Assembly: GCA_045593225.1 (NCBI GenBank)
Contig: JAZNWG010000428.1
Location: 1 to 40,237 of the forward strand
Direction of reading: 5' to 3'
DNA: 40,237 bases
Source: Oscillospiraceae bacterium
GTDB lineage: Bacteria; Bacillota; Clostridia; Oscillospirales; Ruminococcaceae
Shown here: piece after piece, positions 12,816 through 34,100 of the stretch
How positions within the stretch are numbered: position 1 is the stretch's first letter
Layout: each line of letters begins with the position of its first letter
Notes under the pieces: generated by a model
The model's input: the letters and a program-made list of their open reading frames with translations, nothing else
Database searches by the model: none
What the model was told of the DNA's origin: nothing
Made by a program: the position numbers and the translations under genes

Positions 12816-14651
12816 GTGAAAATGACATTAAGAGTAAGACTCATGAGCCTTTGTATGATAGCGGTAGCAGGGACGAGTGCTCTGCTTATGACATCAGCAG
12901 CTATAACAGCGTATAATGTGACCTATACGAACAACGTCCATTTAGGCGAAAAACTGGCAGAAAACAGCGCAGCGTCAATATATGACGAAATGAGTTACCT
13001 TGAAGAATGTTTGGCAGAAGCCGAGATATCTGAAAACGGTGATTCAACATTCGATCGTGTGAGCTACTGGTCAAGTGCTGATTATGCGGTGGAAAATGGT
13101 GATAGCATTATCACGGGCTTAGCGGACGGTGATTTTGTACTTTTGCCCATTGCCGAAAATGACGGCACACCGGTAAACCTTGCCGCGTACAAATCGAACG
13201 GAAAGATACTTGTTGGTGAGTTAGCCAATGACTATCTGGGAGCATATTTTGACGGTGTTTCAGATACTGAGTTTGCATTTATAACAAACGCAGACGGCGA
13301 TGTTGTCGTAGCATCAGACAAAGATTATCTGAAATCAGGAACAAATATCAGAGATCTTGAGCTTACACAAGTAATGGATCGTTTGGATACCGGCGAAAGC
13401 GGCTGTTATACAGGCGCATCACCCGTATTGAATGGGCGAAAGGCACTGATAAACTACGCAAAAGTAGGCGACAGTGATTATTGCATTGTATATGGTGCAG
13501 ACTATGACCAACTGTTCAGCGCTTATTACAATATGCTGATCATTCTTTCTTGCATCCTTATTACCGGTATAGTCGCAGCTGCAACTGCCACTATGTTCAT
13601 ATCCAAAGGTATTCTCACTCCTGTCGTAAAAGCCACCGACAGACTGACAAGACTTTCTGATGGCGATCTCACCAGCATTTGCGAACAGAATAATCGCAAC
13701 GATGAAACACAGGTGCTTGCCGAATCCTTGCAGAAAACAGTATCTGCGTTGGCTACATATATCAAAGATATAGATATCGTGCTTTCAGCGATCAGCAACG
13801 GCAATTTGACTGTAAATAGTTCTGTAAATTATAACGGCGATTTTACAGGCATTCGCAAATCTTTGGACAACATAACGACGCAGATGCGCGAAACAATGTC
13901 TGCCATGACGCTGGTTGGTGAAAAAGTATTGGCAAGCTCTGATAACCTCTCTGTCAACGCACAGCAGCTGGCAGAGAATACTACAAAAGAAGCAGCTACT
14001 ATCGAAGAGATCAACGCAATGGTGTCGAACATTGAAGCTGATAACATCAGAAATGCCGAACTTACTGAAAACGCTGTAAAGCTGTTAGCAGATGTAATGC
14101 AAAACATTGACGAAGGCGGCAAAAACGTCAAAGATATGACTGTTGCCATGAGCAACATCAAAGACACTTCAGACGGAATACAGAAGGTGATCAGATTGAT
14201 CGAGGACATCGCTGTTCAAACCAATCTGCTCGCTTTAAATGCAAGTATAGAAGCAGCAAGAGCCGGTGCAGCAGGTAAGGGCTTCGCAGTGGTTGCCGAT
14301 GAAGTAAGAAATCTTGCTTCTAAATCAGCAGAAGCTGTTTCCGACACAATGAAGCTGATCGAGTGCAGTGATAGTGCTGTTGAAATGGGCGCAACCATTG
14401 CAACAAATACACAAACGTCATTTGAAACAATAACAGACGCAACAAAGCAATTTGAACAGCTTATACGCAATATCTCTACAGCATCTGAGGAACAGAAGAA
14501 AGCTATGCGTGAAATAGCTTCAGGTCTGGAAAATGTCACAATGACAATACAATCAAATGCTGCCTCTGCAGAAGAAAGTGCGGCTGCGAGCCTTGAGCTT
14601 AAAACACAAGCAGACATTCTTAATAAACAGGTTTCAATGTTTAAAATATAA
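12816..14651 (+). CDS. methyl-accepting chemotaxis protein (TM-sensor-TM-HAMP-MA)
   Basis: [37 protein letters not shown] signalling hairpin; two TMs. Confidence 0.97.
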
Positions 14652-14681
14652 AATTGCGGTATAGCGAAAGGAGTATCAAAC

Positions 14682-15563
14682 ATGGGAGATATTTTACTGG
14701 AAACAGGCACTAACGAGCTGGAGCTGCTCGTTTTCACAGTAGGTACACAGAAATTTGGCGTAAACATTGCCAAAGTAACGGAGATCATGCGATATCAGAA
14801 GATAACGCAGATACCCGGTTGTGAGCCAGAACTCGAAGGCATCTTTACGCCCAGAGAAAACGCAATAAGTGTAGTCAACTTACATACTGTATTAAAGCGC
14901 GAAATGCCTGACAATACGGAAGGTCTGCTCCTTATTTGTCATTTCAACAGACTTGACATTGCGTTCCACGTAACCTCCGTACAGGGTATCCAGCGCATTT
15001 CTTGGGAATCGATCGATAAATCGCCTGAAATTGCAAACAGCGGAACATCGACGTTGACCACAGGTATCGTTAAGATCAATGAAGACATTATTCTTGTTCT
15101 TGATTTCGAAAAAATCGTATCCACGTTGAATTCGTCTGCCATATTGGATACTGACGGTATCGAACCGACAACCGATGCAACAGCTGCAGAGCGACATATC
15201 GTCATTGCGGAAGACTCCGCGTTCCTCAACACGATGATCGTAAAATCTTTGAGTACAGCCGGATACACTAAGGTATCACATTTTGAAAACGGCAGAGACG
15301 CTTGGGATTTCATTTCCAACTTGCCCAATGCTGCAGATACTATCGCATGTGTTATTTCAGATATCGAAATGCCCAAGATGGATGGACACAATCTGTGTAA
15401 GAGAATAAAGTCCGACGATAAACTGAAGAGCATTCCTGTATATCTGTTCTCTTCACTGATAAATGAACAGATGATCATAAAAGGCGAAAGCGTAGGTGCA
15501 GATGCTCAGTTCTCAAAACCGCAGATAAACGAGCTTATCGAGTTTATGAAAAAACACATCTGA
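14682..15563 (+). CDS. cheV: chemotaxis protein CheV (CheW-REC)
   Basis: ILLETGTNELELL..FGVNIAKVTEI; receiver IAEDS..SDIEMPKMDG..FSS..KP. Confidence 0.95.
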   Translation: MGDILLETGTNELELLVFTVGTQKFGVNIAKVTEIMRYQKITQIPGCEPELEGIFTPRENAISVVNLHTVLKREMPDNTEGLLLICHFNRLDIAFHVTSVQGIQRISWESIDKSPEIANSGTSTLTTGIVKINEDIILVLDFEKIVSTLNSSAILDTDGIEPTTDATAAERHIVIAEDSAFLNTMIVKSLSTAGYTKVSHFENGRDAWDFISNLPNAADTIACVISDIEMPKMDGHNLCKRIKSDDKLKSIPVYLFSSLINEQMIIKGESVGADAQFSKPQINELIEFMKKHI

Positions 15564-16458: not shown

Positions 16459-16660
16459 GTCAGACACGCATATGCTGACAGCGAGTACGCGCAACCCGTC
16501 TGACGATGCATCAAAAGACTCAAACCCTGTCTTTATACGGGCGAGGAGAAAACGACAGTGTGAGAATGATACGCTCACAATCCCTGCCGCGATTATCGTC
16601 TCCCTAATTCATGGTCATTCGCTGCCTGCAGGGGTTGCAAGTATCAGCAGCCCTTGTAGG
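16459..16660 (+). ncRNA. candidate structured RNA with alternative folds
   Basis: GTCAGAC/GTCTGAC stem whose loop complements a 3' 14-bp hairpin. Confidence 0.5.
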
Positions 16661-16693
16661 AATCAAGAAATGATTAACAATGGAGAAAATTAC

Positions 16694-17074
16694 ATGCGTT
16701 ATATATACAAGCGTTCAAAATACCATTTTCACAAAGATGACGCATTACACGTAATGCGTCCAACTTTAAATGATCCAAATGCGGATAGCGTCACCGATGT
16801 ATACGATAATCGTGATCTCGCTATTACAGCTGCGCTGAAAGATATCACTGCTCTGAGAAAAAAACTAAAAGCTGATAATATTACATATACATCTGAATTA
16901 TGGAACAATACACTTACAATTAGGTTATCTGATGGTACAACATATTGTTATCACGTTGAATCGGTAATCCATAACACAGCAATGACAATTGCGTTGATGG
17001 TGCTATTTTCGATGATTGTCGTTTTAGGTGTTTACTGTACAGCATTCGGACTGTTTTTGTTTTGTCACAGTTAA
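16694..17074 (+). CDS. hypothetical protein with C-terminal TM
   Basis: TGGAGA RBS before ATG 16694. Confidence 0.7.
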   Translation: MRYIYKRSKYHFHKDDALHVMRPTLNDPNADSVTDVYDNRDLAITAALKDITALRKKLKADNITYTSELWNNTLTIRLSDGTTYCYHVESVIHNTAMTIALMVLFSMIVVLGVYCTAFGLFLFCHS

Positions 17075-17170
17075 GATCAAATCATAACAATCAGAACTAC
17101 TTATAAAAACGAGAACAAAAAGATCCACGGCGGACGACCGCCGTCGGGTTTATTTTAAATGATTAAATAT

Positions 17171-17242
17171 TTCCTTGTAGCTCAGTGGTCAGAGCACATG
17201 CTAACGTGCATGCTGTCATCAGTTCAAATCTGATCAAGGAAG
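17171..17242 (+). pseudogene. tRNA-like, 6-nt anticodon loop, no CCA
   Basis: TTCCTTG/CAAGGAA, CATGC-TAACGT-GCATG. Confidence 0.6.
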
Positions 17243-17249
17243 TAAATAT

Positions 17250-17327
17250 GTTGCATGTAGCTCAATCAGGTAGAGCGTCGGACTGTGGATCCGATCGTTG
17301 TGGGTTCAAGTCCCATCATGCACCCCA
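17250..17327 (+). tRNA. tRNA-His(GUG)
   Basis: G-1, loop CTGTGGA, C73-CCA. Confidence 0.9.
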
Positions 17328-17328
17328 T

Positions 17329-17474
17329 GTTGAGACAGCTCTCTGGATAGAGCGGCTGACGTTCCGTCCGTAGAGGTTCGAGTCCTCTCTTGTGTCATGG
17401 ATGACAGCGGGTAGCGGGTGATAGGCGAAAGCGACGAACAGCAGGTATGGGTTCGACTCCCATTCTCAACACCA
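17329..17474 (+). ncRNA. double-elbow tRNA-like RNA with two T arms
   Basis: outer tRNA with CCA; anticodon stem leads into a permuted T-arm/acceptor-hairpin/D-like module. Confidence 0.75.
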
Positions 17475-17538
17475 ACAGGCGGTTCAACGTTCACTGAACC
17501 TTAATGTGCTTCTGATAAAATGGAAGAAGCCGCCTCAG

Positions 17539-17756
17539 ATATGATACGTGGAACAGGCAAGTCGGCTTAAAAGCAGCCATCTTTTAAAGAGTGAACACTG
17601 TCCGCGCAGCCACCGGAAAGTCGAAATTCCTATTTTCTGTCATGGTTTTAGCTTTGTTTTCGACGGTCTCGAACCGCAACATGAACAGAAAAGGCTGCAA
17701 GGATAACAAAGCCTTATCGTTCTTTGGCGTAACAGCACACCTGTTTTCGGTCATAT
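17539..17756 (+). ncRNA. 23S rRNA H43-H44 (uL11-binding) mimic with inserted domain
   Basis: GGCTTAAAAGCAGCCATCTTTTAAAGAGT...GCGTAACAGCACAC closed by AACAGG/CCTGTT. Confidence 0.8.
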
Positions 17757-17812
17757 TGAAAAAAAACACATCCCATAACCAATAACCAAAGATATTTCCC
17801 AAAGGAGGGGGA

Positions 17813-17851
17813 ATGCCGAATGATGCGATTTACAGTTTACTAGCCGCGTAA
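17813..17851 (+). CDS. micro-ORF MPNDAIYSLLAA (ssrA-tag-like)
   Basis: AAAGGAGG RBS; stop codon in GCCGC-GTAA-GCGGC hairpin loop. Confidence 0.5.
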   Translation: MPNDAIYSLLAA

Positions 17852-17946
17852 GCGGCGATATCACAACAAAAGATGATAATACGTGAATTTTTCTGAATAG
17901 ATAATCTACGCCGCAGTAGTACCAATTGCGACTGCGGCGTTTGTAT

Positions 17947-18023
17947 CGAAACATAGCTCAGTTTGGTAGAGCACGCGGTTTGGGACCGTGAGGCCGCAGG
18001 TTCGAATCCTGTTGTTTCGACCA
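17947..18023 (+). tRNA. tRNA-Pro(UGG)
   Basis: cloverleaf, loop TTTGGGA, CCA. Confidence 0.94.
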
Positions 18024-18155
18024 TTATATATGGATGACCATATGCGAAAGCATACGAGTCGTTATTTCAAGTTGCAATCAGATGGAGTATTGACCAAGTT
18101 TGAATCTTTGCGTAAAAGGCTCTTGGCGCTTTGTTCTTGACACCCATATGTTGAT

Positions 18156-18242
18156 GCCGGAGTGATGGAATTGGCAGACTTAGCTGACTCAAAATCAGTT
18201 GGTAGAAATACCGTGCGGGTTCAAGTCCCGCCCCCGGCACCA
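18156..18242 (+). tRNA. tRNA-Leu(CAA)
   Basis: type II cloverleaf, loop CTCAAAA, CCA. Confidence 0.93.
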
Positions 18243-18243
18243 T

Positions 18244-18548
18244 CGAAGCATCGCGTGATGCAAACAACGCACCTGAGTTATCGCAGAGTTACACATGTCG
18301 TAACGGATCGAAAGATTGAAGCGGATTAGAAGGTGTATCCATGCTGCAGCAAATCAAAACAATCTTCTTCCCTCAAGGTCATGATAAACGGACATGGCAC
18401 TTGCGAAGATTGTGCAGACAAGGCGCTTTGTCCGTCAGCCTACAAAACGTCTGCAAACTGAGATAAACACACGTGGAAACGCATGCGTCGTTGGTCAGTT
18501 GTCTCAGGAACTCACCTCAAACGGCAGCGGTTGACGAATCGCTGCTGA
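18244..18548 (+). ncRNA. candidate ornate ncRNA
   Basis: multiple helices and loop-loop pairing ACGGACA(18388)/TGTCCGT(18429). Confidence 0.6.
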
Positions 18549-18551
18549 CAT

Positions 18552-18628
18552 GGCGGAGTAGAGAAGTGGTCTATCTCACCAGCCTCATAAGCTGGAAATC
18601 GTAGGTTCGAATCCTGCCTTCGCAACCA
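18552..18628 (+). tRNA. tRNA-Met(CAU), initiator-like, second copy
   Basis: near-identical to 11506-11582. Confidence 0.88.
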
Positions 18629-18666
18629 AAATTTATCTTATCGAATCACAACAAAGGAGGAGCTAT

Positions 18667-19011
18667 ATGGATACACAAATAGCATGGCGACTTAAGATCG
18701 TCGTACTGTTAAGCCTTGCGCTATGCTTAGCTGTGCTGATTCTAATGCCTATCAATCAGTCAATGCAGAAAAGATTCGCAGAACGTGAAATGTCAGAAAC
18801 AATTACATCAGGCGAGATCTCACGCAAAGAGCTTGTCAACCCTACAACAGGCTTGTTTACATCGACAGATGCTGAATATCGCCTGTATATTGAATACACG
18901 TGGGAATACGACGACGAAGAAATTACTTCGGAAAAATATTTCAGTGTACCATTAGAAGTCTATAATGCTTATGACATCGGCGACACATTCGATTCCGCAA
19001 AGTTGCACTAA
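18667..19011 (+). CDS. membrane-anchored hypothetical protein
   Basis: AAAGGAGG RBS, N-terminal TM. Confidence 0.8.
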   Translation: MDTQIAWRLKIVVLLSLALCLAVLILMPINQSMQKRFAEREMSETITSGEISRKELVNPTTGLFTSTDAEYRLYIEYTWEYDDEEITSEKYFSVPLEVYNAYDIGDTFDSAKLH

Positions 19012-22703: not shown

Positions 22704-22736
22704 AAAACATCGCGTAAGCGATGTTTTGCTTTTTTT
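22704..22736 (+). terminator. terminator ending the RNA array
   Basis: AAAACATCGC-GTAA-GCGATGTTTT plus T-run. Confidence 0.85.
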
Positions 22737-22782
22737 CCAGCGGAACATTTCCGCAATATACTATTATAAAAGGAGGGTTTCA

Positions 22783-25700
22783 ATGATTTCCTCAAAGAAA
22801 CGCGGCATTATCGGACTACTTTGTGCGTCGATCACGATCGGTGCAATAAGTTTTCCTGTTATTGCTGAAACAGGCACCAGTCCACCTGATTTCACAACAG
22901 GTGCCTACGACACATGGGACGGTATCTCATATACGTTCGATTGGTATACTGCACCCGAAACAGCCGAAGACGGCTCCGCCGTCTATACCATCAGTTCAGC
23001 CTCGGATTTTGCGGCACTATCCGTCATTACAAACGATTTGTCCGGAGATGAGTATTCAAACATCACCGCCAATATTGCAGCAGAGGATGCGCAGTACATT
23101 GAAACAGTAGATCTGTTTGACGGTGACACCATCAAGCTTGCTGCAAATATTGATCTGGCAAACTATGACTGGTTGCCCATCGCATATCCATGGCGCACAG
23201 CTAATCTGTCATCCGCTTACGAATTCGCCAATACAAACGGGGAAATTGTTACCTACAATGCTGTAGATCACATTCCCGATGACGTTGTTGATGTATGGGT
23301 TGGCGATGTAAACGGAGAGCCTATTTCTACACGATATTGGGAGTATCCTGAATCAGAGCTCCGTTTCCGCGACTATATCGATGCCAAAACATTCTCGTCC
23401 ACGCATGAATTGTCAGATTTCGAATGGGATGTAGTCGAAGGAACAAAATACTGGTATCCGGGTCCAAGCGGTTCCGCAACACTTCAATATTGGGGCATGC
23501 CTTTGATAGGAGCTGCGTTCTCAACAACAGAAAATGTTGAAGACGAGACAGGCTTTGGTTATGACCCAAGTACGCCCGCCGCAAGCATTGATCCGACATA
23601 CGGTCCGGATAAACTCAGCGCCAAAACGATCATACCTGTCGATTACACCAAAGAAATAGCAACGCCCTATTCATTCAAACCCATCGCGGGTTATACCGAG
23701 TTTGCAGGCTTCTCAGGAACATTTGATGGCGATAACTTTCACATTAAAGGCGTTTCTCCTGACACACCGTGGACGGAAGATGAGACAGAAAGACTGACCA
23801 CATATGACCCGATAGGTCGCGGTCTGTTTTCACTCGTATCCGAACAAGGTGCGATAAAGAACCTGAATGTGCAAGGTGAATATGATGATGAAATATGTTC
23901 GTATTCAGCTATACTCTGTGCATATAACTTTGGATCGATCGAAAACTGTAAAGTTGATGGCACAATGTCACAATCGTTAATAACGATGGTTTATCCGATT
24001 GCCAAAGATTATGCACCCGACGGTAACTCGGAGTATTTGTTATCAGACACAGCCGGCACAATACTTCCTGTGGGCAATTCAGGTTTTGTGACCTCACAGA
24101 ACTACGGCACAATTGAAAATTGTCAGACAACAGGTAATGTAACGCAAGCGTTCAGACAGTTTGGTTTTATTGCAAGTACCAATAACGGTGTTATCAATTC
24201 CTGCACAAATGCTGCTGAACTAAGCACAACACCTGTAACGACCGACTTCTTTACCTACGAATGGTCTCATTCAGATGAAAACAACTCAGCTGCCGACGAT
24301 AAGTACATATTCTCAATAAACACCGGCAACACGCCTGTTTACCCTGAGATCAGCGTTGGCGCAACAATGCTTCCTCCCGCATTAAGCCACATGAACAAAG
24401 CACTGTATGATGTACATGATGCTGCAAATTACGGTATCACCCATACCGCTCTTGTTGCTATGAGCTTATCAGCTGCAGTAAGAAGCAACAGTATATTGAA
24501 TACAAACGTATGGAGCGCAGGTGCAACGGCGTATGCAAGCTTGTATCCCGCTCTGAATGATGAGCTATGGATTGCACCGCTCTACAACGTCGAAGACGAA
24601 GAGAGCATCGCAGCCAACATTCTGTACGGTCGTTATATCATGACACTTGCTGCAGGTATTGCGGCTGTCAATAACGGTGAGATAAATAATTGTGCTAACT
24701 TCGGTGCGATATCTGCAATAGAAAACGTAACTGAAGAACAACTATACACTCGCAAAAACCATGAAGATGTAACGATAGATGATACCGACGCATATAGCTG
24801 GATACGTCCCCAGAACCAATACGGCTTATTCGCAACAGCGACAAGCTCAGCAAGACTTCATGCTGGTATATCTGCTGTGAACACAGGTGCGATAGCCAAT
24901 TGTTCTGATGCTGCTGATTTGTCATACGGCGAGACAGGCGTTATAACCACTAACGGCGTCGAGTACGACGTTGTAGACGACGCTGAAGGTATTGCATCCG
25001 AGTATAGCTCGCTTGGCAACGGCAATAACACCTCGTCTTTAAATATCATCGCTGCAACAGCAAATGGCTTCTACTGTAATGACGTGAAGTATGATAGCGA
25101 TTACTACGCTTTCGGAACACGTTGGTGGATATCTGAGGATATGAAGAATGCGGCATTGCCCGATGGTTATACATCCGCGTCTTATGACGCAAATATGCCA
25201 TATCCGTTCTATTTCGGCTACAACGAACTGCATTCTCGTATATCGGGCGGCATCTCCGTTCATAACTGTGGCACGATCACAGATTGCTCGGCAACAGGCC
25301 GTGCATATGCAGGACTAGCCGCTGTCTGCATCGGCGGTGAGATAACAAACTGCTCAGATGTGTCTGCGTCTGATACAGATATCGGATATGCGATCCGATA
25401 TGCAGAGAACGGAACATTTTCAGACCTGACCTGTGAGGATTATTGCTTTGGCACGATCACACAATCAGGTGATAGTATATGTATCGGCACTCATATCGTT
25501 GCTGACAGCATTGCAGGAACCGTAAACGGCGAAGATACAGACAAGCTTACGCTTGAAACAGTATATGCAAACAGTAAGATCGCTTATAACATACAAACAG
25601 CAACTGTAAATGACTTTGTCACCTGTGGAAGCATCGCTTCCTCGACTCGTGGATCATTAGGGGACTGGGAAGACAGAGCAGATCTGAATAACTGCAAAAT

Positions 25701-28167
25701 TTCCAACGGCGTTGTGCTTGGTGAAAACCTGTGCAATCTGGGTATATTGAACAGTGAACTGACAGACATCACCGTCTTGTCGGACACCACATTCTCTTTA
25801 TATGTCCCGACAGCAGGATTTGGTTCGGTTGACAGTGCTTTCAATAACATTACGATAAGCACGCTGACCAGTCCGGCGCCGACCTTAAACGAAAACTATT
25901 GCACTATCCTCGGCAACTTTGATAACTGCGAACTCGATAATATTCGTGTTCATGGTAACAACATTGCATTCTGGATGACAGATTGTGTTGTAAACGACAT
26001 GATCACCTCCGGTGAAACAGGCATGGATTTCGTTGACTGGCTGAGAGAAAACATAATCCGAAACGGTTCGGCACAAGAGTATCTTTACTTCTTTGAGAAC
26101 TGTGAGTGCACGGATATGTTCCTCGAATCAGACATCCAGTTTGAATTCGCAAATCCGCTCACATCGTCTGAAATACAAAAAATTCCCGGTGTACTGAAAG
26201 CGATTCGCGATACGAACACTTTCACCAGATGTGTTGTATCAACACCTGACGGAGCGATTTCTTATCCAACAACAAATGTGACAAGCTTTGATGACGCCAC
26301 TATTCTTACAGATGCCAAACTGATATACAGTGACGGTTCTTGGAAAAATGGCGCATTGGCATACTATCTTGACAAAGGCTATTCAGATAACAGAACCTTT
26401 GATTTCACAGTAGCTGAGAACGACACGTTTAACTGCGGTGACATGATTTCTGGTGACTTAGCGTTCATGCTCGAAGATGATGTATATGCAGAGGTACACA
26501 CAGATGTGACCATCCCTGCATACACAAGAGCAAAGACGGATGCTTCCGAGCCCTCTTTCTACGCGATATCTGCTCCGTATTCGGGCGCAGGTGCAGGTGA
26601 AATAAAGCTCTCGGTTACGCGCGGTGACGATACATGGTCAACAAGCGCTGCAGGAAATGCATTCCCTGAAACAGATATCTTCGTGATTCCTGATGAAACA
26701 TTCACTTACGAAGTCAATGTAGCTGATGGCGCCGGACTAACAGGCATCACATGGAGCACAAAGACTGATAGCTATGACCTCACATCGGAAGGAACGGCGT
26801 TTGAGAACTTCAAGATCACATCAAGCGTTGCGCCTGCTGAAGACGTTGTAATTCTCGGTAGGTGGGCAAATGTCTGGGATATCAAGATATCTGATGCACA
26901 CACTGACTGGCTGTTGCTTGAAACAAGCGCAGCAGCGGCTCTTCCCGGGGCACATGTCATGGTAAATGCAAATGTACTGGGTACAGATAATGCTCTTGGC
27001 GCTGTGTACTACTATCCATACGCACTTGACGCAAACAACGACTGGGTTCTTGATATGTCTGAAAAGACTTATGTTGATCTTTCGACAGGCGTTTTTGAAA
27101 TGCCGAATGCCCATATCATGCTGTTTGCAGAAGCGTTAAACACAGGTGCTGAGATAACTGAGTTTGTCATCGGCGGTAAAAAGGGAACAATTGATAACGA
27201 CACCATTACAATAGGTCTTGACGCGACTCTTGATATCACATCGCTTATTCCCGACAGTATCGTCATTTCTCCGAACGCAACTATCACTCCCGCGCCAAAT
27301 ATGCCGCAGGATTTTTCAGAACCCGTACAATACACAGTAACTTCCGAGTCTGGTGCCGTCAAAACATACTCTGTACAAGTCATTCCAACTGAAGATGGCT
27401 TGATCACACAGTTTGAGCTTGCTGGTCGTCTGGGTGTCATAGACCAGACCGCAAAGACGATCACCGTAACTGTGCCCCCGTCTGTTGACCTCTGGAATAC
27501 ACAGGCAAACATTGTATGGTCGGGTACGGCAATCACTCCTGACCCGTCAAAGGTGAAGGATTATCATCGTAACGATGTCACATATACGGTTACTGCTTCT
27601 GACGGCACTCTTAACCCCTATACTATTATAATAGATGTAGTAGAGGCATCCTCATGGATCGATGCATTTGTTCTGGAGACAGACAATAAACAATTGACGA
27701 TCGATATTGACGAAGCAAATAGCAAAATATATGTGTACTATGACTATGGTACTGACGTATCGAATGTGAAGCTGACAAGTTATCATCACATGGGTGCTAC
27801 TTCCAACCTTGCGTTGGGTGATACCCTGAACCTGACACAGCATTCGGTTCTGTCGCTCACGACTGATTATGGCGATACTAAATTCTATGACTTGCTGGCA
27901 ATCGAGCGACCAAATCCCGACAAAATGATCACTCAGTTCATCTTGTTTGGTCACATCGGAACGATCGATCAAGAGACAGGTGAGATCCGGATCACATTGC
28001 CAAGCAAATATGACATAACTCGCATTCAGCCCGATGCGATCGCATATCGCGGTCACGAGATACTCGGCGTAAACGAGTTCAAGGATTTCTCTCAGCCTGT
28101 CGAATACACGGTTACATCTTTTGATGGAACATCAAAAACATACACTATCATTGTGACACGATCTTAA
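22783..28167 (+). CDS. giant secreted protein: GLUG/beta-helix-like region plus 4 C-terminal DUF5018-like Ig repeats
   Basis: AAGGAGG RBS, signal peptide, G.I.NC repeats, ITxF..G.ID..DFSxPVxYTV repeats. Confidence 0.85.
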   Translation: MISSKKRGIIGLLCASITIGAISFPVIAETGTSPPDFTTGAYDTWDGISYTFDWYTAPETAEDGSAVYTISSASDFAALSVITNDLSGDEYSNITANIAAEDAQYIETVDLFDGDTIKLAANIDLANYDWLPIAYPWRTANLSSAYEFANTNGEIVTYNAVDHIPDDVVDVWVGDVNGEPISTRYWEYPESELRFRDYIDAKTFSSTHELSDFEWDVVEGTKYWYPGPSGSATLQYWGMPLIGAAFSTTENVEDETGFGYDPSTPAASIDPTYGPDKLSAKTIIPVDYTKEIATPYSFKPIAGYTEFAGFSGTFDGDNFHIKGVSPDTPWTEDETERLTTYDPIGRGLFSLVSEQGAIKNLNVQGEYDDEICSYSAILCAYNFGSIENCKVDGTMSQSLITMVYPIAKDYAPDGNSEYLLSDTAGTILPVGNSGFVTSQNYGTIENCQTTGNVTQAFRQFGFIASTNNGVINSCTNAAELSTTPVTTDFFTYEWSHSDENNSAADDKYIFSINTGNTPVYPEISVGATMLPPALSHMNKALYDVHDAANYGITHTALVAMSLSAAVRSNSILNTNVWSAGATAYASLYPALNDELWIAPLYNVEDEESIAANILYGRYIMTLAAGIAAVNNGEINNCANFGAISAIENVTEEQLYTRKNHEDVTIDDTDAYSWIRPQNQYGLFATATSSARLHAGISAVNTGAIANCSDAADLSYGETGVITTNGVEYDVVDDAEGIASEYSSLGNGNNTSSLNIIAATANGFYCNDVKYDSDYYAFGTRWWISEDMKNAALPDGYTSASYDANMPYPFYFGYNELHSRISGGISVHNCGTITDCSATGRAYAGLAAVCIGGEITNCSDVSASDTDIGYAIRYAENGTFSDLTCEDYCFGTITQSGDSICIGTHIVADSIAGTVNGEDTDKLTLETVYANSKIAYNIQTATVNDFVTCGSIASSTRGSLGDWEDRADLNNCKISNGVVLGENLCNLGILNSELTDITVLSDTTFSLYVPTAGFGSVDSAFNNITISTLTSPAPTLNENYCTILGNFDNCELDNIRVHGNNIAFWMTDCVVNDMITSGETGMDFVDWLRENIIRNGSAQEYLYFFENCECTDMFLESDIQFEFANPLTSSEIQKIPGVLKAIRDTNTFTRCVVSTPDGAISYPTTNVTSFDDATILTDAKLIYSDGSWKNGALAYYLDKGYSDNRTFDFTVAENDTFNCGDMISGDLAFMLEDDVYAEVHTDVTIPAYTRAKTDASEPSFYAISAPYSGAGAGEIKLSVTRGDDTWSTSAAGNAFPETDIFVIPDETFTYEVNVADGAGLTGITWSTKTDSYDLTSEGTAFENFKITSSVAPAEDVVILGRWANVWDIKISDAHTDWLLLETSAAAALPGAHVMVNANVLGTDNALGAVYYYPYALDANNDWVLDMSEKTYVDLSTGVFEMPNAHIMLFAEALNTGAEITEFVIGGKKGTIDNDTITIGLDATLDITSLIPDSIVISPNATITPAPNMPQDFSEPVQYTVTSESGAVKTYSVQVIPTEDGLITQFELAGRLGVIDQTAKTITVTVPPSVDLWNTQANIVWSGTAITPDPSKVKDYHRNDVTYTVTASDGTLNPYTIIIDVVEASSWIDAFVLETDNKQLTIDIDEANSKIYVYYDYGTDVSNVKLTSYHHMGATSNLALGDTLNLTQHSVLSLTTDYGDTKFYDLLAIERPNPDKMITQFILFGHIGTIDQETGEIRITLPSKYDITRIQPDAIAYRGHEILGVNEFKDFSQPVEYTVTSFDGTSKTYTIIVTRS

Positions 28168-28179
28168 GGAGACACAATA

Positions 28180-31100
28180 ATGAGATTGAAAAGATTATTC
28201 TCAGGTCTCGTTGCGTGTACTTTCATCTTGTCGCTCATCCCTCAGATTACACTCTCTGCTGCAACGGCAGAGAGTGAATCGGGTGGTCGAGTAAACTGGA
28301 CAGGATACGAAGACCGCAACTTAGATTTTGATGTATGGGATGGCACTTCATACGACACTTCATGGTATAACGAAGCCGTTGGTAGCGAAAGCGACCCGTA
28401 CATCATCGACTCTGCCGCAGACCTTGCAGGTTTGCAGTACATGACAAACAACAGCGAGAATATTGGCTACGGCACAGTGACTCCGCTGACGACAAAGGAA
28501 ACGAATTTCCTTTCCAAATTCCGCTATGCGTTTTATGATACGGAAAAAGACGCATTTGACCCTGCCGCGTGGTATTATCTGCTTTCAAGCACACGATTAG
28601 ACAAAAACGTAAGATATGAAGCTACCTGTGACCTTGTGGAATACCAGCTTGAATACGACGCAGGAAAATATGTCACTACGGCATACATGGATAACGTCAA
28701 ATACTGGCTCAAAGTCGGGGATGCGGCTGTTCAGCTTAAATTCGACCAAAACCTTGCTGACTTGGTTTCTGACTATTATCGTTTCTATTTTGAACCCGCA
28801 AAAGATTATTCCGAAACAGGCGTCAAACCAAATTACTATCCGCTCAACCAAATGAAAGCGGTAAAAGATGATTGCTGCGCTTTATCCGATATTATCATCG
28901 GTGGTGGAATATCCGCCGATTGGGAAAGCAATACGTTTGAGTATACTGCTTACTATTATAATGGTGGCGACACATATACTTTCACCTGCGACCTTGATGA
29001 CTTCAACATCCTGAAAGGGAAGACCGCAGTCAACGCATACGGCGAAAGTATTGAGCTGAATACCAACATGGTACATCAATATGAAATGTATACATCTTCG
29101 CTCTCTACATTTTCTGCTGTTGTCGGCACCGTCAAAGGATATCCGTTGTCTGATACCACAAGAGCGTCAGGTTTTAACACCTTTATCGGTGATTTAGGTG
29201 TTATCTCTGTTGATACAACAAATGCAGACAGCCATTGTGGTTCGGAGAAAATAATCTTCGAAGGCGGTTATGGCGAAAAAGCAGATTACTCGTATTTCCA
29301 AGATACGACGATATCCACAGACACATGGTACAATGCGCTTGACTCAATCGTTTATGCTGGGCATTTCGGTGCGCCGAGCTATAAGGTAGGTGTACTTTAC
29401 GATTGGGATGCCGTAAATGACGATACCATACTGGTAACACTGAACGTCTATACTGATGATGTTCTGACTTCTACAGTGAAAACATCCGTGGATTGCAGTG
29501 TTGACGGTATTTCCTTGCCCAAGTTCTACGGCTACGATGTAAATGTGACCTTGGACGAACAAGCGCAGGAACTCACAGTTACTATCCCTCGTGTATACAA
29601 GAAGGGCATCAGTATCTGGGGCGCAGATACCAAGACAGGAGCAAACACAGGCGATGTTCTTACTGTTACCATTCCTGTAGAACAGAACAATACGGCAACG
29701 CTGTATACGCTTGACGGAACTGACACAGGCACATACACCAATGACGGCAGATACAAGCTTATCAGCTCGAATTGTTTCGCGCCTGCAGCGTTTGAAACAT
29801 GGACGATAAATTGGGCAACAGATGCCACGTCTCTTGCTCAGTACAACCATCTGACCTGCGATAATCCATCTTTTAAGGGTAAATACATCAAGCTTGGCGC
29901 AGACATTGATATGTCTGCCGCGCCAATATCCATATTCCCTAACAGATATCATGATGGCTATGGTTTGGACGGCACATTTGATTTAAACGGCTATGCGATA
30001 AAAGGCGTGAGCAACGACTTTATTGGGTCGATAAACAAAACAGGTGTTCTGAAGAACGGTCATATTGAATTGGATGTTGCGAATACAAATGGTCCAGCTG
30101 TAATATGCGCAACAGCAGGTGCGATATCTGATGTAGACTTCTACGCATACTCGCTTCTCGAAAGCGAAGGTATCGGCGAACAGGGTGTATCTCGTCATAT
30201 CGTTGGCACAAACAATGGTGAGATACGCAGATGTTCGTTACGAACAACCACCTATAACACAGAAAGCTTTGTGTACGAGAATAACAATCTGATAAGCGAC
30301 TGTGACTGGTACTATATTGAACCGACAGCAGTCGGCGATAGTGTGATAAACACAACGTTTTCCAGTACGCCATCAAGCTTCTTTGTTTATATAAACAATG
30401 GTCACATTCAGAATGTTTGTGTTGATGCCGATGAAAACGCAGTGAACGCTGCTCACGAACTGGCATATGACGGTCAGGCACTCATAGCCGCTAACCCATA
30501 TAGCACAGGAACAGTTGATGGTTTTTACATGGGTGACTTCACTGTCAAAAACACAGGTCGTCACGCATGGATATATGCCGGCGGAATCGTTTCAAACATG
30601 GAGACATACGTGTCTTTTGAAAGAAACAATATATCCGCATATGCGTCCATGCAGAATTCCACACAAAGTCTGACAGATAGCAAAATTGACATGACATCTG
30701 ACTGCTTTGCTTTCAACGGTGATACTGTAAGTGGTGGTATCAGTTTTTACAACTGTGAAGTTAAATACACAGGATCTACAGCACAAGCATATAACAACAG
30801 CTACAACGGCATATTTGAAATAAATGCGATACAGGACTCCAAGTTCGATATCCATGTAAACGACAACCCTGCATACAACAGCGGTAATACAGGAAAAGAC
30901 CCTCTGTTTTTCAGTGACTATGACTCGTCAATAAAGAACTCTATCATTGATAATTCTGAGATAACAATAAACCTGTCTCATTACACAAAGAACGACGAGC
31001 CTATCCTGTGGCTCACTAAGGGTGAGATAACCAACAGTGAAATCAATCTGATTTCGCCGTATGGTTCTGATTGGGGATATGTAGGTCTGATAAACTGTAA

Positions 31101-34100
31101 CCGAGTTCGTAACTCGAAAATCAATTGCCCTGATGTAAGAGGCTATGCAACTCCAATCTTCGGATACAACAGTTCTGGAGCAAAGATTTGCGAAAATTCC
31201 ATTGTATCGGTAAGCTACAAAGGTCAGTTGTTACCATCTTCTCGCGTCTACAACGACAATGGAATGATGTGGGTCAACTCCGAATTCTATGTTCATTTTG
31301 ACGAAACAGCAGTTTTCAACTCTTACGACAATGGTCAATACACCAATGACAACTGTCCACCTGTTTGTCTTGAGGGCTTAGTTGATTCGATAATCGTCAT
31401 GACAAGCGATTCCGATGATGTTGTGTTCGAAGACGAAGTTATCCTGCAAGGTTCAGGTAATTACGGAGAGTTTGCAGGACGATACGAGAACAGCACGATA
31501 CTGCTTGACAGTCTGACACTTTCTGGTGCAGACACTACATTGTTCGGACAGAGCAACTCAAACTCGTCGTATAACTATGTAAAATCCTTAGAAAACCTTA
31601 CAATTATCTCGAAGAACACCAAAAAGGCAACCGCAGACACAAACGTTATTGTTTGTGATTCCATTTCCCAAAACGGTTTGATGTCGGGCATGATTAACGG
31701 TCTGTATATTGATGTTGAATACGCTGACGGACATGAAGAGACTCCTACAATAGGCTTCCATCTGAGAGGTCAGTGCTTTAATGGTAACCCGTTCATTCTG
31801 GCAAATGCCTATATGACCTCGAATACTACATCTCCGAAATCGGCATTGACGCAAGTACACTCTAACACTGTGTTTAGTTATGGTAATCCAAATCTTGTTT
31901 TCAACAACATCTTTCTGGATTTACCCAACGCTCAGACAACTGTGACTCCATCGGAAACAGCAGAGGGCGTTACAACAGGCTTTGTGAGTATGTCTTCGGA
32001 TAGCTCTTATTACAGAGATAAATACGATGATACTGCTGTGATTTGTTTCGGTGACGTTCCTTGGATGGGTAGTTACCTCTTACAGGACAACATGGCGTGG
32101 GGCAACGTTCTGATACCATCGGGACATTCAGTTCTTCCTCAGTATTACAATGCCGATACAACAACACCTGACTCGTGGAACGTTGAATCCAATCTCTCAA
32201 GCGTTTATGGCGGTTGGTTTTATGGTACAGACAATGACGATAGCTCTCACGGTAACATAACAAAAGCTCTTGATGAGCTTTCTGTTATCGAGTTTGATAC
32301 ATCTGACCCCGATTGCTATACAGACGGCTCACTTGCATATGCACTTGACAACGGTTCTTCGCAGTATCGCCGTTCACAAAGCTGGACGGTTATAGATGCA
32401 TTCTCTGTTTACAACCCCTTGACTGACGAACTTGTATGGGAGCAAGACGCTTTCACAGGTCTCGCGGCTATGCACCTTCCTGAGAGAGTTATCATAACCT
32501 ATGATGTGAACTTCGAACCTGTTTACAAGCTTACAATGTTACCCGCTGACGGCGGATACGTTGAAGTGCTTGGATTGGCAGACAAAATCACATCAGACGG
32601 TTCTGTGTACGTCAAGCGAAACACGTCTGTGCCTACAAATGAAGTAGTTGCAGACGAACGACTGACATTTGCATACGCATTGCAGTCTTTCTATGACGGA
32701 GCTACGTCTCGTATTCCGTCTACAGCAGACTCACAGCCGCAGACTTTTGCACGCCGTGCATCCGATCCGACAGATTACACAATCAACGGCTATACCGTAT
32801 ATGCAGCTGATACGACTATTCAGCCTGTATTCGGAACCGCTCGTTATATCACTGTGAATTTGACAGGTTCTGAGAACGGAACGATCGTTCCTTCCACAAC
32901 AGTGTCTATAGCAGGTGAGACCATTCGTCTGCAAAACGATATTGCTAAAGGCTATACCGTGACCAACCTGGCAATAAACGGAACACCGTTAACAGAAATG
33001 ATGTTCATTATGCCTGACGCAGATGTGGAGATCACCGGTGAAATAATTCCATTTGACGGCGGCATTACACAGTTCTCTGTATACGGTTTCGACGGTCTTA
33101 TCGACCAGATAAACCATACGATTTCTGTGATCATTCCTAAAATGGGCAGTCTCACGAATATTCAGCCTGAGATCGAGTGGTCAGGTAAATATCTTACTCC
33201 GTCTGAAAGCACAAGGGTCGACCTCAGCAATCCTGTGACCTACACAGTGACCAAAGACGATGATACAACAGTTGACTATGCTGTTACTGTGACACAGTCC
33301 ACACATACGATGCGTATTTACGAATACGAGATAAACGGTGTAAAAGGCGACATCAATCATGCAACACGACAGATCACTGTTGAGTTACCGGCAGGCACTG
33401 ATTTAAGTGCACTCACACCTACAAACATCGTATACTCCGCAGAAAGCATCGCTCCGACAAGCAATGCGACACAGGACTTCCGTGCCCCTGTCGTGTACAC
33501 ATTGAGCACAACAGGTATGCAAAACGTTCAGTATACAGTGACCGTGAAGGCTCTCGGTTCGTCTGACGCTCGTATTGACGAATATGTATATTCGGGCTAT
33601 TCCGGCGTTATCGACCATGAGAACGGAACTATTACGCTAAACATTCCCGCACTTCTGAGCACAACAGACGTTGTTCCAAGCGTACTGTCGTATGCAGGCA
33701 AGCAAATCAGCCCGTCCAAGACAACAGCTGTTACGCTAACTGACGACATTGCCACTACTGCAACCTACACAGTCACCTCGCAGAATGATACTACAAAGAC
33801 ATACGCAATCGTTGCAAATCTTCTCTCTGACGACACCGCTAAGATTACAAAATTTGAGCTTGGCGGGGAAGAGGGTATTATCGACGAAGATGAAAAGACT
33901 ATCACTGTCACAGTAAGTGAAACAGTGAATATCACTGACGTAACACCTGACAGCCTCATCTTTGAGGGAAAGAGCATATACCCCAGCATCAGCATCGAGC
34001 GTGACTTTACACAACCTCAGACGTATACTGTTGTTGCGCCTGACAATAGCGAAGTAACATACACCGTAGACGTTATCCGTCAGAAGAACGGAGCTGAAAT

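What the first reader, a model, noticed from the sequence alone, without database searches (positions are those of the whole stretch)
17539..17756. Stand-alone mimic of the 23S rRNA GTPase-associated centre with a 134-nt inserted domain
17552-17592 (AACAGGCAAGUCGGCUUAAAAGCAGCCAUCUUUUAAAGAGU) and 17727-17745 (GCGUAACAGCACACCUGUU) align base for base with 23S nt ~1051-1108 (GGAUGUUGGCUUAGAAGCAGCCAUCAUUUAAAGAAAGCGUAAUAGCUCAC, recalled E. coli sequence). There is a compensatory U1058-A1080 to A-U swap, a new closing helix, and the A1067 and A1095 equivalents are retained. A structured insert (GCAGCC/GGCTGC, GTCGAAA/TTTCGAC, pseudoknot TTTTCTGT/ACAGAAAA) sits at about nt 1090. No other rRNA sequence flanks it. 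Inference: a decoy or scaffold for uL11/uL10, translational GTPases, RelA, thiopeptides or rRNA-targeting toxins.
Basis: partly seen in the sequence, partly recalled or inferred. Interest (0 to 1): 0.9.

Follow-up and report, generated by a model that had tools for sequence, protein, structure and literature searches.

The report
Phage RNA copying ribosome's uL11 site
Inside a mobile element's tRNA gene array lies a 218-base stretch whose two ends copy the piece of ribosomal RNA that binds protein uL11; it belongs to a large family conserved across phages that I found in no database or paper searched, and it is likely a free RNA that captures the host's uL11 away from the ribosome, which would blunt the ribosome's starvation alarm.

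Summary
Window 17552-17592 and 17727-17745 are colinear with 23S rRNA 1050-1090 and 1091-1109 (31/41 and 14/19 identical to Salmonella), split by a 134-nt insert, with no other rRNA nearby. It is one member of a large family: 112 distinct clusters from viral contigs, a few genomes and cultured phages (e.g. Pseudomonas pf16, Cronobacter GAP32), often in tRNA arrays and always on the tRNA strand where tRNAs are near. The 17 strongest of 3655 covarying position pairs are all predicted pairs: H43, the 1082-1086 pair, a private closing helix and the insert stem. Fold-defining bases are invariant; the tips (A1067, A1070) vary more than in rRNA; kink-turn 42 is absent; 0 of 50 carriers encode uL11. 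Best reading: a stand-alone RNA that likely binds host uL11 and acts as a stalk-base decoy, probably damping RelA signalling. Binding, expression and effect are untested. It is absent from Rfam and from the papers searched, but this scan has already noted the same family in at least eight other genomes.

The parts
17539..17756 (+). Predicted RNA, first to last base of the outermost stem (true ends not shown)
   Evidence: MFE pairs 17539-17545 with 17750-17756 (whole-region z only -1.75); T17545C in relatives X1 and X7 turns a G-U into a G-C pair
17552..17557 (+). 5' strand of the private closing helix that replaces H42 (1050-1055); pairs with 17740-17745
   Evidence: Pairs 1046-1055 with 1104-1113 are among the top covarying pairs in 112 clusters; median closing helix 9 bp
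17558..17592 (+). H43, its loop with A1067 (17569), the 1082-1086 mini-loop and the 5' strand of H44 (1056-1090)
17593..17596 (+). 5' strand of the stem that closes the insert; pairs with 17719-17722
   Evidence: first three pairs formed in 111, 109 and 105 of 112 clusters, with changes on both sides
17597..17718 (+). Variable insert body: nested stems 17606-17610/17694-17698 and 17633-17644/17680-17692; lineage-specific
   Evidence: insert folds at z -2.2; relatives keep these stems but break the proposed pseudoknot stem; no BLAST match to the other 111 inserts
17719..17722 (+). 3' strand of the insert-closing stem
17723..17726 (+). Conserved UUUR linker between the insert stem and G1091; the family's own signature, absent from rRNA
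   Evidence: U in 84, 83 and 82 of 85 clusters found by the 5' pattern, then G 69 / A 16
17727..17745 (+). H44 loop with A1095 (17731), 3' strand of H44 (A1101) and 3' strand of the closing helix (1091-1109)
17251..17327 (+). tRNA-His, nearest called tRNA upstream (context)
17947..18023 (+). tRNA-Pro, nearest tRNA downstream (context)

Best explanation
This is a self-closed copy of 23S rRNA helices 43-44 kept by phages and other mobile elements among their tRNA genes; it is likely transcribed with the array, predicted to fold like the ribosomal domain, and likely binds the host's uL11 off the ribosome, where it would act as a decoy of the stalk base and would damp uL11-dependent RelA/(p)ppGpp signalling during infection. 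Shown here: sequence, family, covarying pairs, private closing helix, insert site, absence of kink-turn 42 and of an element-encoded uL11. Inferred: transcription and processing out of the tRNA array; the tertiary fold; uL11 binding (about 0.75); the RelA-damping outcome (about half of that). The insert hangs off H44 as an extra arm through a short stem and a UUUR linker; it can shrink to one hairpin, so it is probably an accessory for stability or docking, not the working part.
For: Family: 120 (capped) viral hits to the 5' half, 113 with the 3' half; 94 hits to the 3' half, 73 with the 5' half; 112 clusters at 90%. The top 17 of 3655 APC-corrected pairs are all predicted pairs; an independent count on 11 sequences gives 98.6% paired, 0/500 shuffles as high, slid controls 40-64%. 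The non-helical 1082-1086 pair varies as U-A 60, C-G 30, A-U 15 of 112; PMC2952862 describes this trans pair as U-A in E. coli and C-G in Haloarcula (passage). The C1072-C1092-G1099 triple (PMC8614978) is swapped whole to U-U-A in phages RSP15 and ME3. G1059, U1060, G1062, G1063, G1071, C1072, C1079, A1084, A1085 and A1088 are unchanged in 47/47 clusters found by the other half; that uL11's C-terminal domain reads this face is recalled, not from a call. 0 of 50 carrier records encode uL11, so a partner must be the host's. The uL11 N-terminus is required for RelA activation (PMC4974054, passage). tRNA within 700 nt in 54 of 90 clusters, all on the same strand, none opposite.
Against: No binding, folding or expression data. 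The invariant bases are also the ones the fold needs, so sequence cannot separate 'folds like' from 'binds uL11'. Free MFE folding prefers another pairing of the 1082-1090 region (-54.8 against -40.7 kcal/mol for the constrained core), though the model ignores tertiary contacts. The triple swap is 2 of 112 clusters with related inserts, perhaps one event, and one locus (L263) has U1092-A1099 with C1072 unchanged. Stripping uL11 would also slow the element's own translation (strains lacking L11 grow very poorly; PMC2175356), and a decoy would need to be very abundant or act only on new ribosomes. No link to RelA was tested. 36 of 90 clusters have no tRNA within 700 nt.
Confidence: 0.42

Rival explanations
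1. A free, working stalk-base module: the RNA with host uL11 (and perhaps bL12-like proteins) grips tRNA elbows or translation factors, for example to protect or hand on the element's own tRNAs, with the insert as the docking arm.
For: Stand-alone copies of the L1-stalk head lie 0.7-3.5 kb from the RNA on three contigs; both stalks meet tRNA (PMC4974054 for the L11 stalk; PMC10931766 for the L1 stalk). bL12-like domains in 11 of 50 carriers against 1 of 48 tRNA-bearing controls. The UAA that uL10 reads is invariant.
Against: The bL12 excess is not significant per megabase (13 in 10.5 Mb against 1 in 4.1 Mb, p=0.06) and only one match is a full bL12. Kink-turn 42 is absent in 112/112. The tips that meet factors are relaxed (A1067 34/47, A1070 33/47). 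Only 2 of 50 carriers showed an L1 copy.
Confidence: 0.2
2. A bait for a host defence enzyme that cuts or modifies H43/H44 of the ribosome on infection, in the way phage tRNAs offset tRNA nucleases.
For: It sits with tRNAs and tmRNA; low-GC contigs of the same bin hold RtcB, Thg1 and RlaP (same replicon not shown); jumbo phages are described as countering attacks on translation (PMC7824862, passages).
Against: I know of no anti-phage effector that targets H43/H44 (recalled; not searched on its own). A bait should match the host's exposed loops, yet these drift from rRNA.
Confidence: 0.13
3. A cis-acting sensor of free uL11 that controls transcription or processing of what follows, like r-protein leaders.
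For: rRNA mimicry by mRNA leaders is established for uL1 and uL10 (PMC10931766, PMC4538822). The invariant UUUR could pair with U1083-A1085 (108-110 of 112) as a second state.
Against: No common downstream gene: a tRNA comes first in 30, an ORF with a ribosome site in 20, neither in 42 of 92 clusters. The alternative helix shows no covariation; its A1088 pair is broken in 45 of 112 and its 1086 pair in 19. The RNA closes on itself.
Confidence: 0.1
4. An intron-like precursor: the insert is cut out and the halves ligated to give an uninterrupted 58-nt domain.
For: Removing the insert gives a sequence that occurs in real rRNAs with U1090-A1101 (63 metagenome hits); the insert's boundary is strictly conserved; RtcB lies on a co-binned contig.
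Against: No shared catalytic core or ORF in the inserts; no Rfam intron hit in the window or 20 loci; the bulge-helix-bulge-like pairing I considered does not covary; a second insertion site after A1077 in five loci looks like tolerance of added arms.
Confidence: 0.08
5. A decayed fragment of a captured rRNA operon with no function.
For: High identity to rRNA; some 'phage' records do hold real 23S (Pd_22F; L396).
Against: In 50 whole carrier records the only 23S matches are this domain (29) and one L1 head; flanks of 112 clusters give one 23S hit, the L1 head; compensatory changes throughout; in close relatives the core differs at 2-3 positions while the insert differs at 16-17.
Confidence: 0.01

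Closest known systems
GTPase-associated centre of 23S rRNA (H42 tip, H43, H44; E. coli 1051-1108; the 58-nt uL11-binding fragment)
   Same: Sequence, H43 and H44 pairs, the 1082-1086 pair, the bases of both triples, U1060 and A1088.
   Different: Free-standing; own closing helix instead of H42, no kink-turn 42; an extra arm plus UUUR between 1090 and 1091; relaxed loop tips; U1090-A1101 fixed.
Ribosomal-protein leaders that mimic rRNA (L10 leader of rplJL; uL1 operator of rplK-rplA)
   Same: RNA imitation of an rRNA protein site (PMC4538822, PMC10931766; passages read).
   Different: Those are cis elements before their own r-protein genes and copy a minimal motif; this copies a whole tertiary domain, lies among tRNA genes of mobile elements, and its carriers lack uL11 (0/50). 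The review lists no uL11-responsive leader in the passages seen.
GOLLD and ROOL RNAs
   Same: Structured non-coding RNAs of phages and prophages near tRNA arrays, function unknown (PMC12286853, passages).
   Different: No Rfam hit to either; 90-430 nt rather than 600-800 (sizes partly recalled); the word rRNA does not occur in that paper's text.
tRNA mimics and phage RNA decoys (bacterial Y RNAs; the ToxI mimic of phage PhiTE)
   Same: Non-coding RNA that imitates a host RNA (PMC4201824, PMC3475682; search listing and abstract start only).
   Different: They imitate tRNA or an antitoxin, not a ribosomal functional centre.
rRNA intervening sequences, archaeal rRNA introns and group I introns (recalled)
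   Same: An insertion that splits an rRNA-like sequence.
   Different: The flanks are not an rRNA gene; no intron core, no bulge-helix-bulge covariation.

Membership tests
23S rRNA gene or pseudogene | Continuous homology to 23S beyond H43-H44, with other rRNA domains nearby | tested here: not met
uL11-binding domain (works like) | H43/H44 pairs and three-way junction with the 1082-1086 pair | tested here: met
   covariation
uL11-binding domain (works like) | Bases of the triples 1071-1091-1100 and 1072-1092-1099, and U1060/A1088 | tested here: met
   invariant, with a whole-triple swap in 2 of 112 clusters and one partial change; the tertiary fold itself is inferred
uL11-binding domain (works like) | Binds uL11 and thiostrepton | not testable with these tools
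   no RNA-protein assay or complex prediction for RNA available
uL10(bL12)4 site / L10 leader | Unpaired UAA | tested here: met
   A1084, A1085 in 47/47, U1083 in 45/47
uL10(bL12)4 site / L10 leader | Kink-turn 42 below the junction | tested here: not met
   both rRNA-type strands in 0 of 112; regular helix instead; tested by motif, so a divergent kink-turn further out is not excluded
r-protein mRNA leader | Directly upstream of the cognate r-protein gene | tested here: not met
   0/50 carriers encode uL11; mixed downstream context
GOLLD / ROOL / any Rfam 15 family | Covariance-model score above gathering threshold | tested here: not met
   window and 20 loci give only tRNA and tmRNA
Archaeal-type or group I intron | Bulge-helix-bulge or catalytic core at the insert | tested here: not met
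Archaeal-type or group I intron | Spliced RNA product | not testable with these tools
   no RNA holder listed for this window
Bacteriophage (nature of this contig) | Virion or packaging genes | tested here: inconclusive
   none among 27 window ORFs (Pfam), 23 (PHROGs) or 51 ORFs of four low-GC contigs; most relatives are viral contigs or cultured phages

The most novel reading that the evidence does not exclude
Phages and giant mobile elements encode free copies of both mobile stalks of the 50S subunit, the uL11 stalk base and the L1 head, as small RNAs that load host uL11 and uL1 and act in trans, to silence RelA or to hold the element's own tRNAs: a layer of translation control by ribosome spare parts.
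Probability: 0.3. Interest if true: 0.93.

Novelty: categorically new. Interest (0 to 1): 0.8.

Why it matters
Known rRNA mimics are short cis leaders that regulate r-protein operons. A widespread, independently evolving viral copy of a whole ribosomal functional centre has no counterpart in Rfam or in the papers I could search. It would be a new way for phages to act on translation or on the stringent response. It occurs, unannotated, in cultured phages with laboratory hosts (pf16 on Pseudomonas putida, UNO-G1W1 on P. fluorescens), so it is directly testable, and 112 natural variants map what the H43-H44 fold tolerates once freed from the ribosome. The novelty belongs to the family; this window is one more member of a family that the scan has already met.

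Tried and rejected
Expression: no RNA holder listed for window 16500-19000; this is no evidence either way. PA5oct's two abundant non-coding RNAs (PMC7318152, passages) are not members; its other two were not examined. A switch or splice helix between 1084-1088 and the UCUUU after the insert: no covariation, broken in the GG/CC class. Pseudoknot: not supported. Inserts as copies of other rRNA parts: 7 weak hits against 1-7 in ten shuffles. Insert-less copies: 0 in viral contigs; the 63 metagenome hits all show rRNA-type flanks by eye, 47 with at least 150 nt aligned to Salmonella 23S. Paenibacillus phage Pd_22F's hit is real 23S. 10 of 17 genome-contig hits to the 3' motif lack a 5' half and were treated as chance. 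Not found in 400 other genomes of the bin's family. Promoter scan: 2 sites, chance level. uL11 gene: 0/50. bL12 enrichment: inconclusive. Inserts as a class fold only slightly better than shuffles (median z -0.6, 81 inserts of up to 200 nt). Literature: nine answered full-text searches and a tenth gave no description; the library lacks most subscription papers. In PMC10690425 the main text reports no rRNA overlap and five core motifs were absent from 6 supplementary files, but files 1, 2 and 4 could not be searched, so a partial model of this RNA may be among its 10,000 candidates. No covariance model was built; members with a second insertion or diverged anchors (about 40 loci) were left out of the counts.

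Full report
Setting. The window is a whole 40-kb contig of a binned genome (G000:C428), 43.5% G+C against 48.4% for the bin. It carries 29 ARAGORN tRNA calls and a tmRNA, all on the + strand, with HU, SpoVG, a sigma factor, a chemoreceptor, CheW-receiver, two giant DUF5018 proteins and a helicase. No virion gene was found. Four other low-GC contigs hold RtcB, Thg1, RlaP, an integrase, ToxN and a MobL relaxase; that they are one replicon is not shown. The motif is absent from 400 other genomes of the family. The contig is therefore mobile DNA, phage or conjugative.

Observation. 17552-17592 and 17727-17745 correspond to 23S 1050-1090 and 1091-1109, split by 134 nt. Identity is 31/41 and 14/19 to Salmonella and 34/41 and 14/19 to a Bacillota 23S; the 34-nt core scores 28 against at most 23 in 100 shuffled windows. 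Rfam gives a sub-threshold archaeal LSU hit (E=0.0033) and no family at gathering score. The proposed pseudoknot stem is broken in the three relatives that cover it, whereas the nested stems are kept, with one compensatory change.

Family. Pattern scans of viral contigs gave 32, 94 and 120 (capped) loci. 113 of 120 found by the 5' half have the 3' half; 73 of 94 found by the 3' half have a close 5' half, and most of the rest inspected have a more diverged one or a second hairpin inserted after A1077 (five loci). Seven of 17 hits in species genomes have both halves, among them isolates of Thiobacillus denitrificans and Gemmobacter caeni. Cultured phages with both halves read directly: pf16, UNO-G1W1, Astolliot, Milchi, Aeromonas 4_4572, XacN1, GAP32, RSP15, ME3 and Vibrio 2.275.O; GAP32's copy also matches, over its full length, CBB, Serratia BF, XbC2 and seven Erwinia phage records. 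No record annotates it as an RNA. Two of 48 viral records picked only for carrying a tRNA hold it. For counting, 236 loci gave 128 distinct sequences; two with a wrong anchor were dropped and 126 collapsed to 112 clusters at 90%; about 40 loci were not parsed.

Structure. The 17 highest APC-corrected mutual-information scores among 3655 position pairs are all predicted pairs: 1058-1080 (G-C 42, U-A 31, A-U 30, C-G 5), 1057-1081, ten pairs of the closing helix, four of the insert stem and 1082-1086 (U-A 60, C-G 30, A-U 15). Clusters are still related, so these are not independent events. The last pair is the trans pair that closes the junction mini-loop in rRNA (PMC2952862, passage). The triple C1072-C1092-G1099 (PMC8614978, passage) is swapped whole in RSP15 and ME3, possibly one event, and half-changed in L263. 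A tool count on 11 sequences agrees (98.6% paired). U1090-A1101 is fixed; this variant also occurs in real rRNAs. The insert is 28-369 nt, always closed by a short covarying stem and followed by UUUR. Inserts fall into 76 similarity groups, the largest of 24 sharing a 3' hairpin motif; the window's matches none. Against the model, free folding prefers to pair the 1082-1090 region with the insert's end, but that helix does not covary.

What is kept and what is let go. In the 47 clusters found by the 3' half, the core bases G1059, U1060, G1062, G1063, G1071, C1072, C1079, A1084, A1085, G1087 and A1088 are invariant, while A1067 is kept in 34 and A1070 in 33, against 65 and 66 of 67 rRNAs (30 Bacillota, 37 distinct metagenome rRNAs; Fisher p 2e-4 and 1e-5, overstated by kinship). 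A1095 is kept in 77 of 85. A1067 and A1095 are the thiostrepton contacts. Kink-turn 42, critical with UAA for L10(L12)4 binding (PMC4538822, passage), is absent in 112 of 112. What remains is the minimal uL11-binding domain. Carriers do not encode uL11 (0/50).

Context. tRNA genes lie within 700 nt in 54 of 90 clusters, always on the same strand; there is no common downstream gene. Whole-record searches of 50 carriers with a full 23S found this domain in 29 and one other segment, an L1-stalk head. Such heads stand alone on at least five contigs, three of which also carry the uL11 copy.

Mechanism. I commit to a uL11-binding decoy. Steps shown: the domain, its selection for structure, the missing uL10 determinant, the missing own uL11. 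Steps inferred: expression, fold, binding, and damping of RelA, which needs the uL11 N-terminus to hold deacylated tRNA (PMC4974054, passage; PMC5291266 adds a RelA contact to the H43 tip, passage). The outcome step is the weakest: losing uL11 also slows translation (PMC2175356, passage). The rivals are a working free module, a bait for a defence enzyme, a cis sensor and a spliced precursor.

Novelty. Ten full-text searches, Rfam 15 and passages of PMC12286853, PMC7824862, PMC10931766 and PMC10690425 gave no description; three supplementary files of the last could not be searched and may bear on this. All papers were seen as passages or listings, none whole. After my analysis, the scan's own notes showed the same family in eight other genomes and the L1 copy in three; these are unchecked AI notes, not independent support, and they make this window a further member rather than the first sighting. 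Verdict: real, categorically new against the searched record, mechanism untested; interest 0.8.

Noticed in passing
L392:1729-1794 (=G482); G472:C1:154263-154333(-); L393:2488-2558; L391; L395; perhaps L390: Stand-alone copies of the 23S L1-stalk head (H76-H78) among phage tRNA genes; three of these contigs also carry the uL11-site copy, 0.7-3.5 kb away.
   Followed up: partly
window 17330-17474: A tRNA-like unit (T-arm and D-arm motifs) nested inside a longer stem that ends in a T-arm and CCA; called by neither ARAGORN nor Rfam at gathering score. Present in relatives X1 and partly X5.
   Followed up: partly
window 17170-17243: tRNA with an 8-nt anticodon loop (ARAGORN 'aacg'); G17194A and C17213A in relative X1.
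   Followed up: no
L064, L078, L082, L089, L094: Family members with a second hairpin inserted after A1077.
   Followed up: partly
24 clusters, e.g. pf16 L264:4130-4160: The commonest insert class ends in a conserved hairpin with a GNRA-type loop and an ACC/UAAG internal loop that recalls a tetraloop receptor (recalled); a second class of 9 ends in a different motif.
   Followed up: partly
G499:C1:284586-284783; G486:C1:65845; G505:C1:34798; G508:C1:155526: A full bL12 in one carrier and bL12-CTD-like pieces 2.4-3.2 kb upstream of the RNA in three; enrichment not significant.
   Followed up: partly
window 12816-15563 and 22726-35778: Chemoreceptor and CheW-receiver genes inside the tRNA array, and two giant DUF5018 proteins (1813 and 2532 aa) after it: unusual cargo for a phage.
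   Followed up: no
G000:C77, C173, C309 (L398-L403): Low-GC contigs with RtcB, Thg1, RlaP, ThyX, ToxN, Fic, integrase and MobL relaxase; possibly the rest of the same element.
   Followed up: partly
L334 (MZ092003.1 near 83976-84013): The Paenibacillus phage Pd_22F record contains unannotated real 23S rRNA sequence, probably host DNA.
   Followed up: yes
L215: A 5' half followed by AT-rich DNA and an ORF instead of the 3' half: apparently an interrupted member.
   Followed up: no
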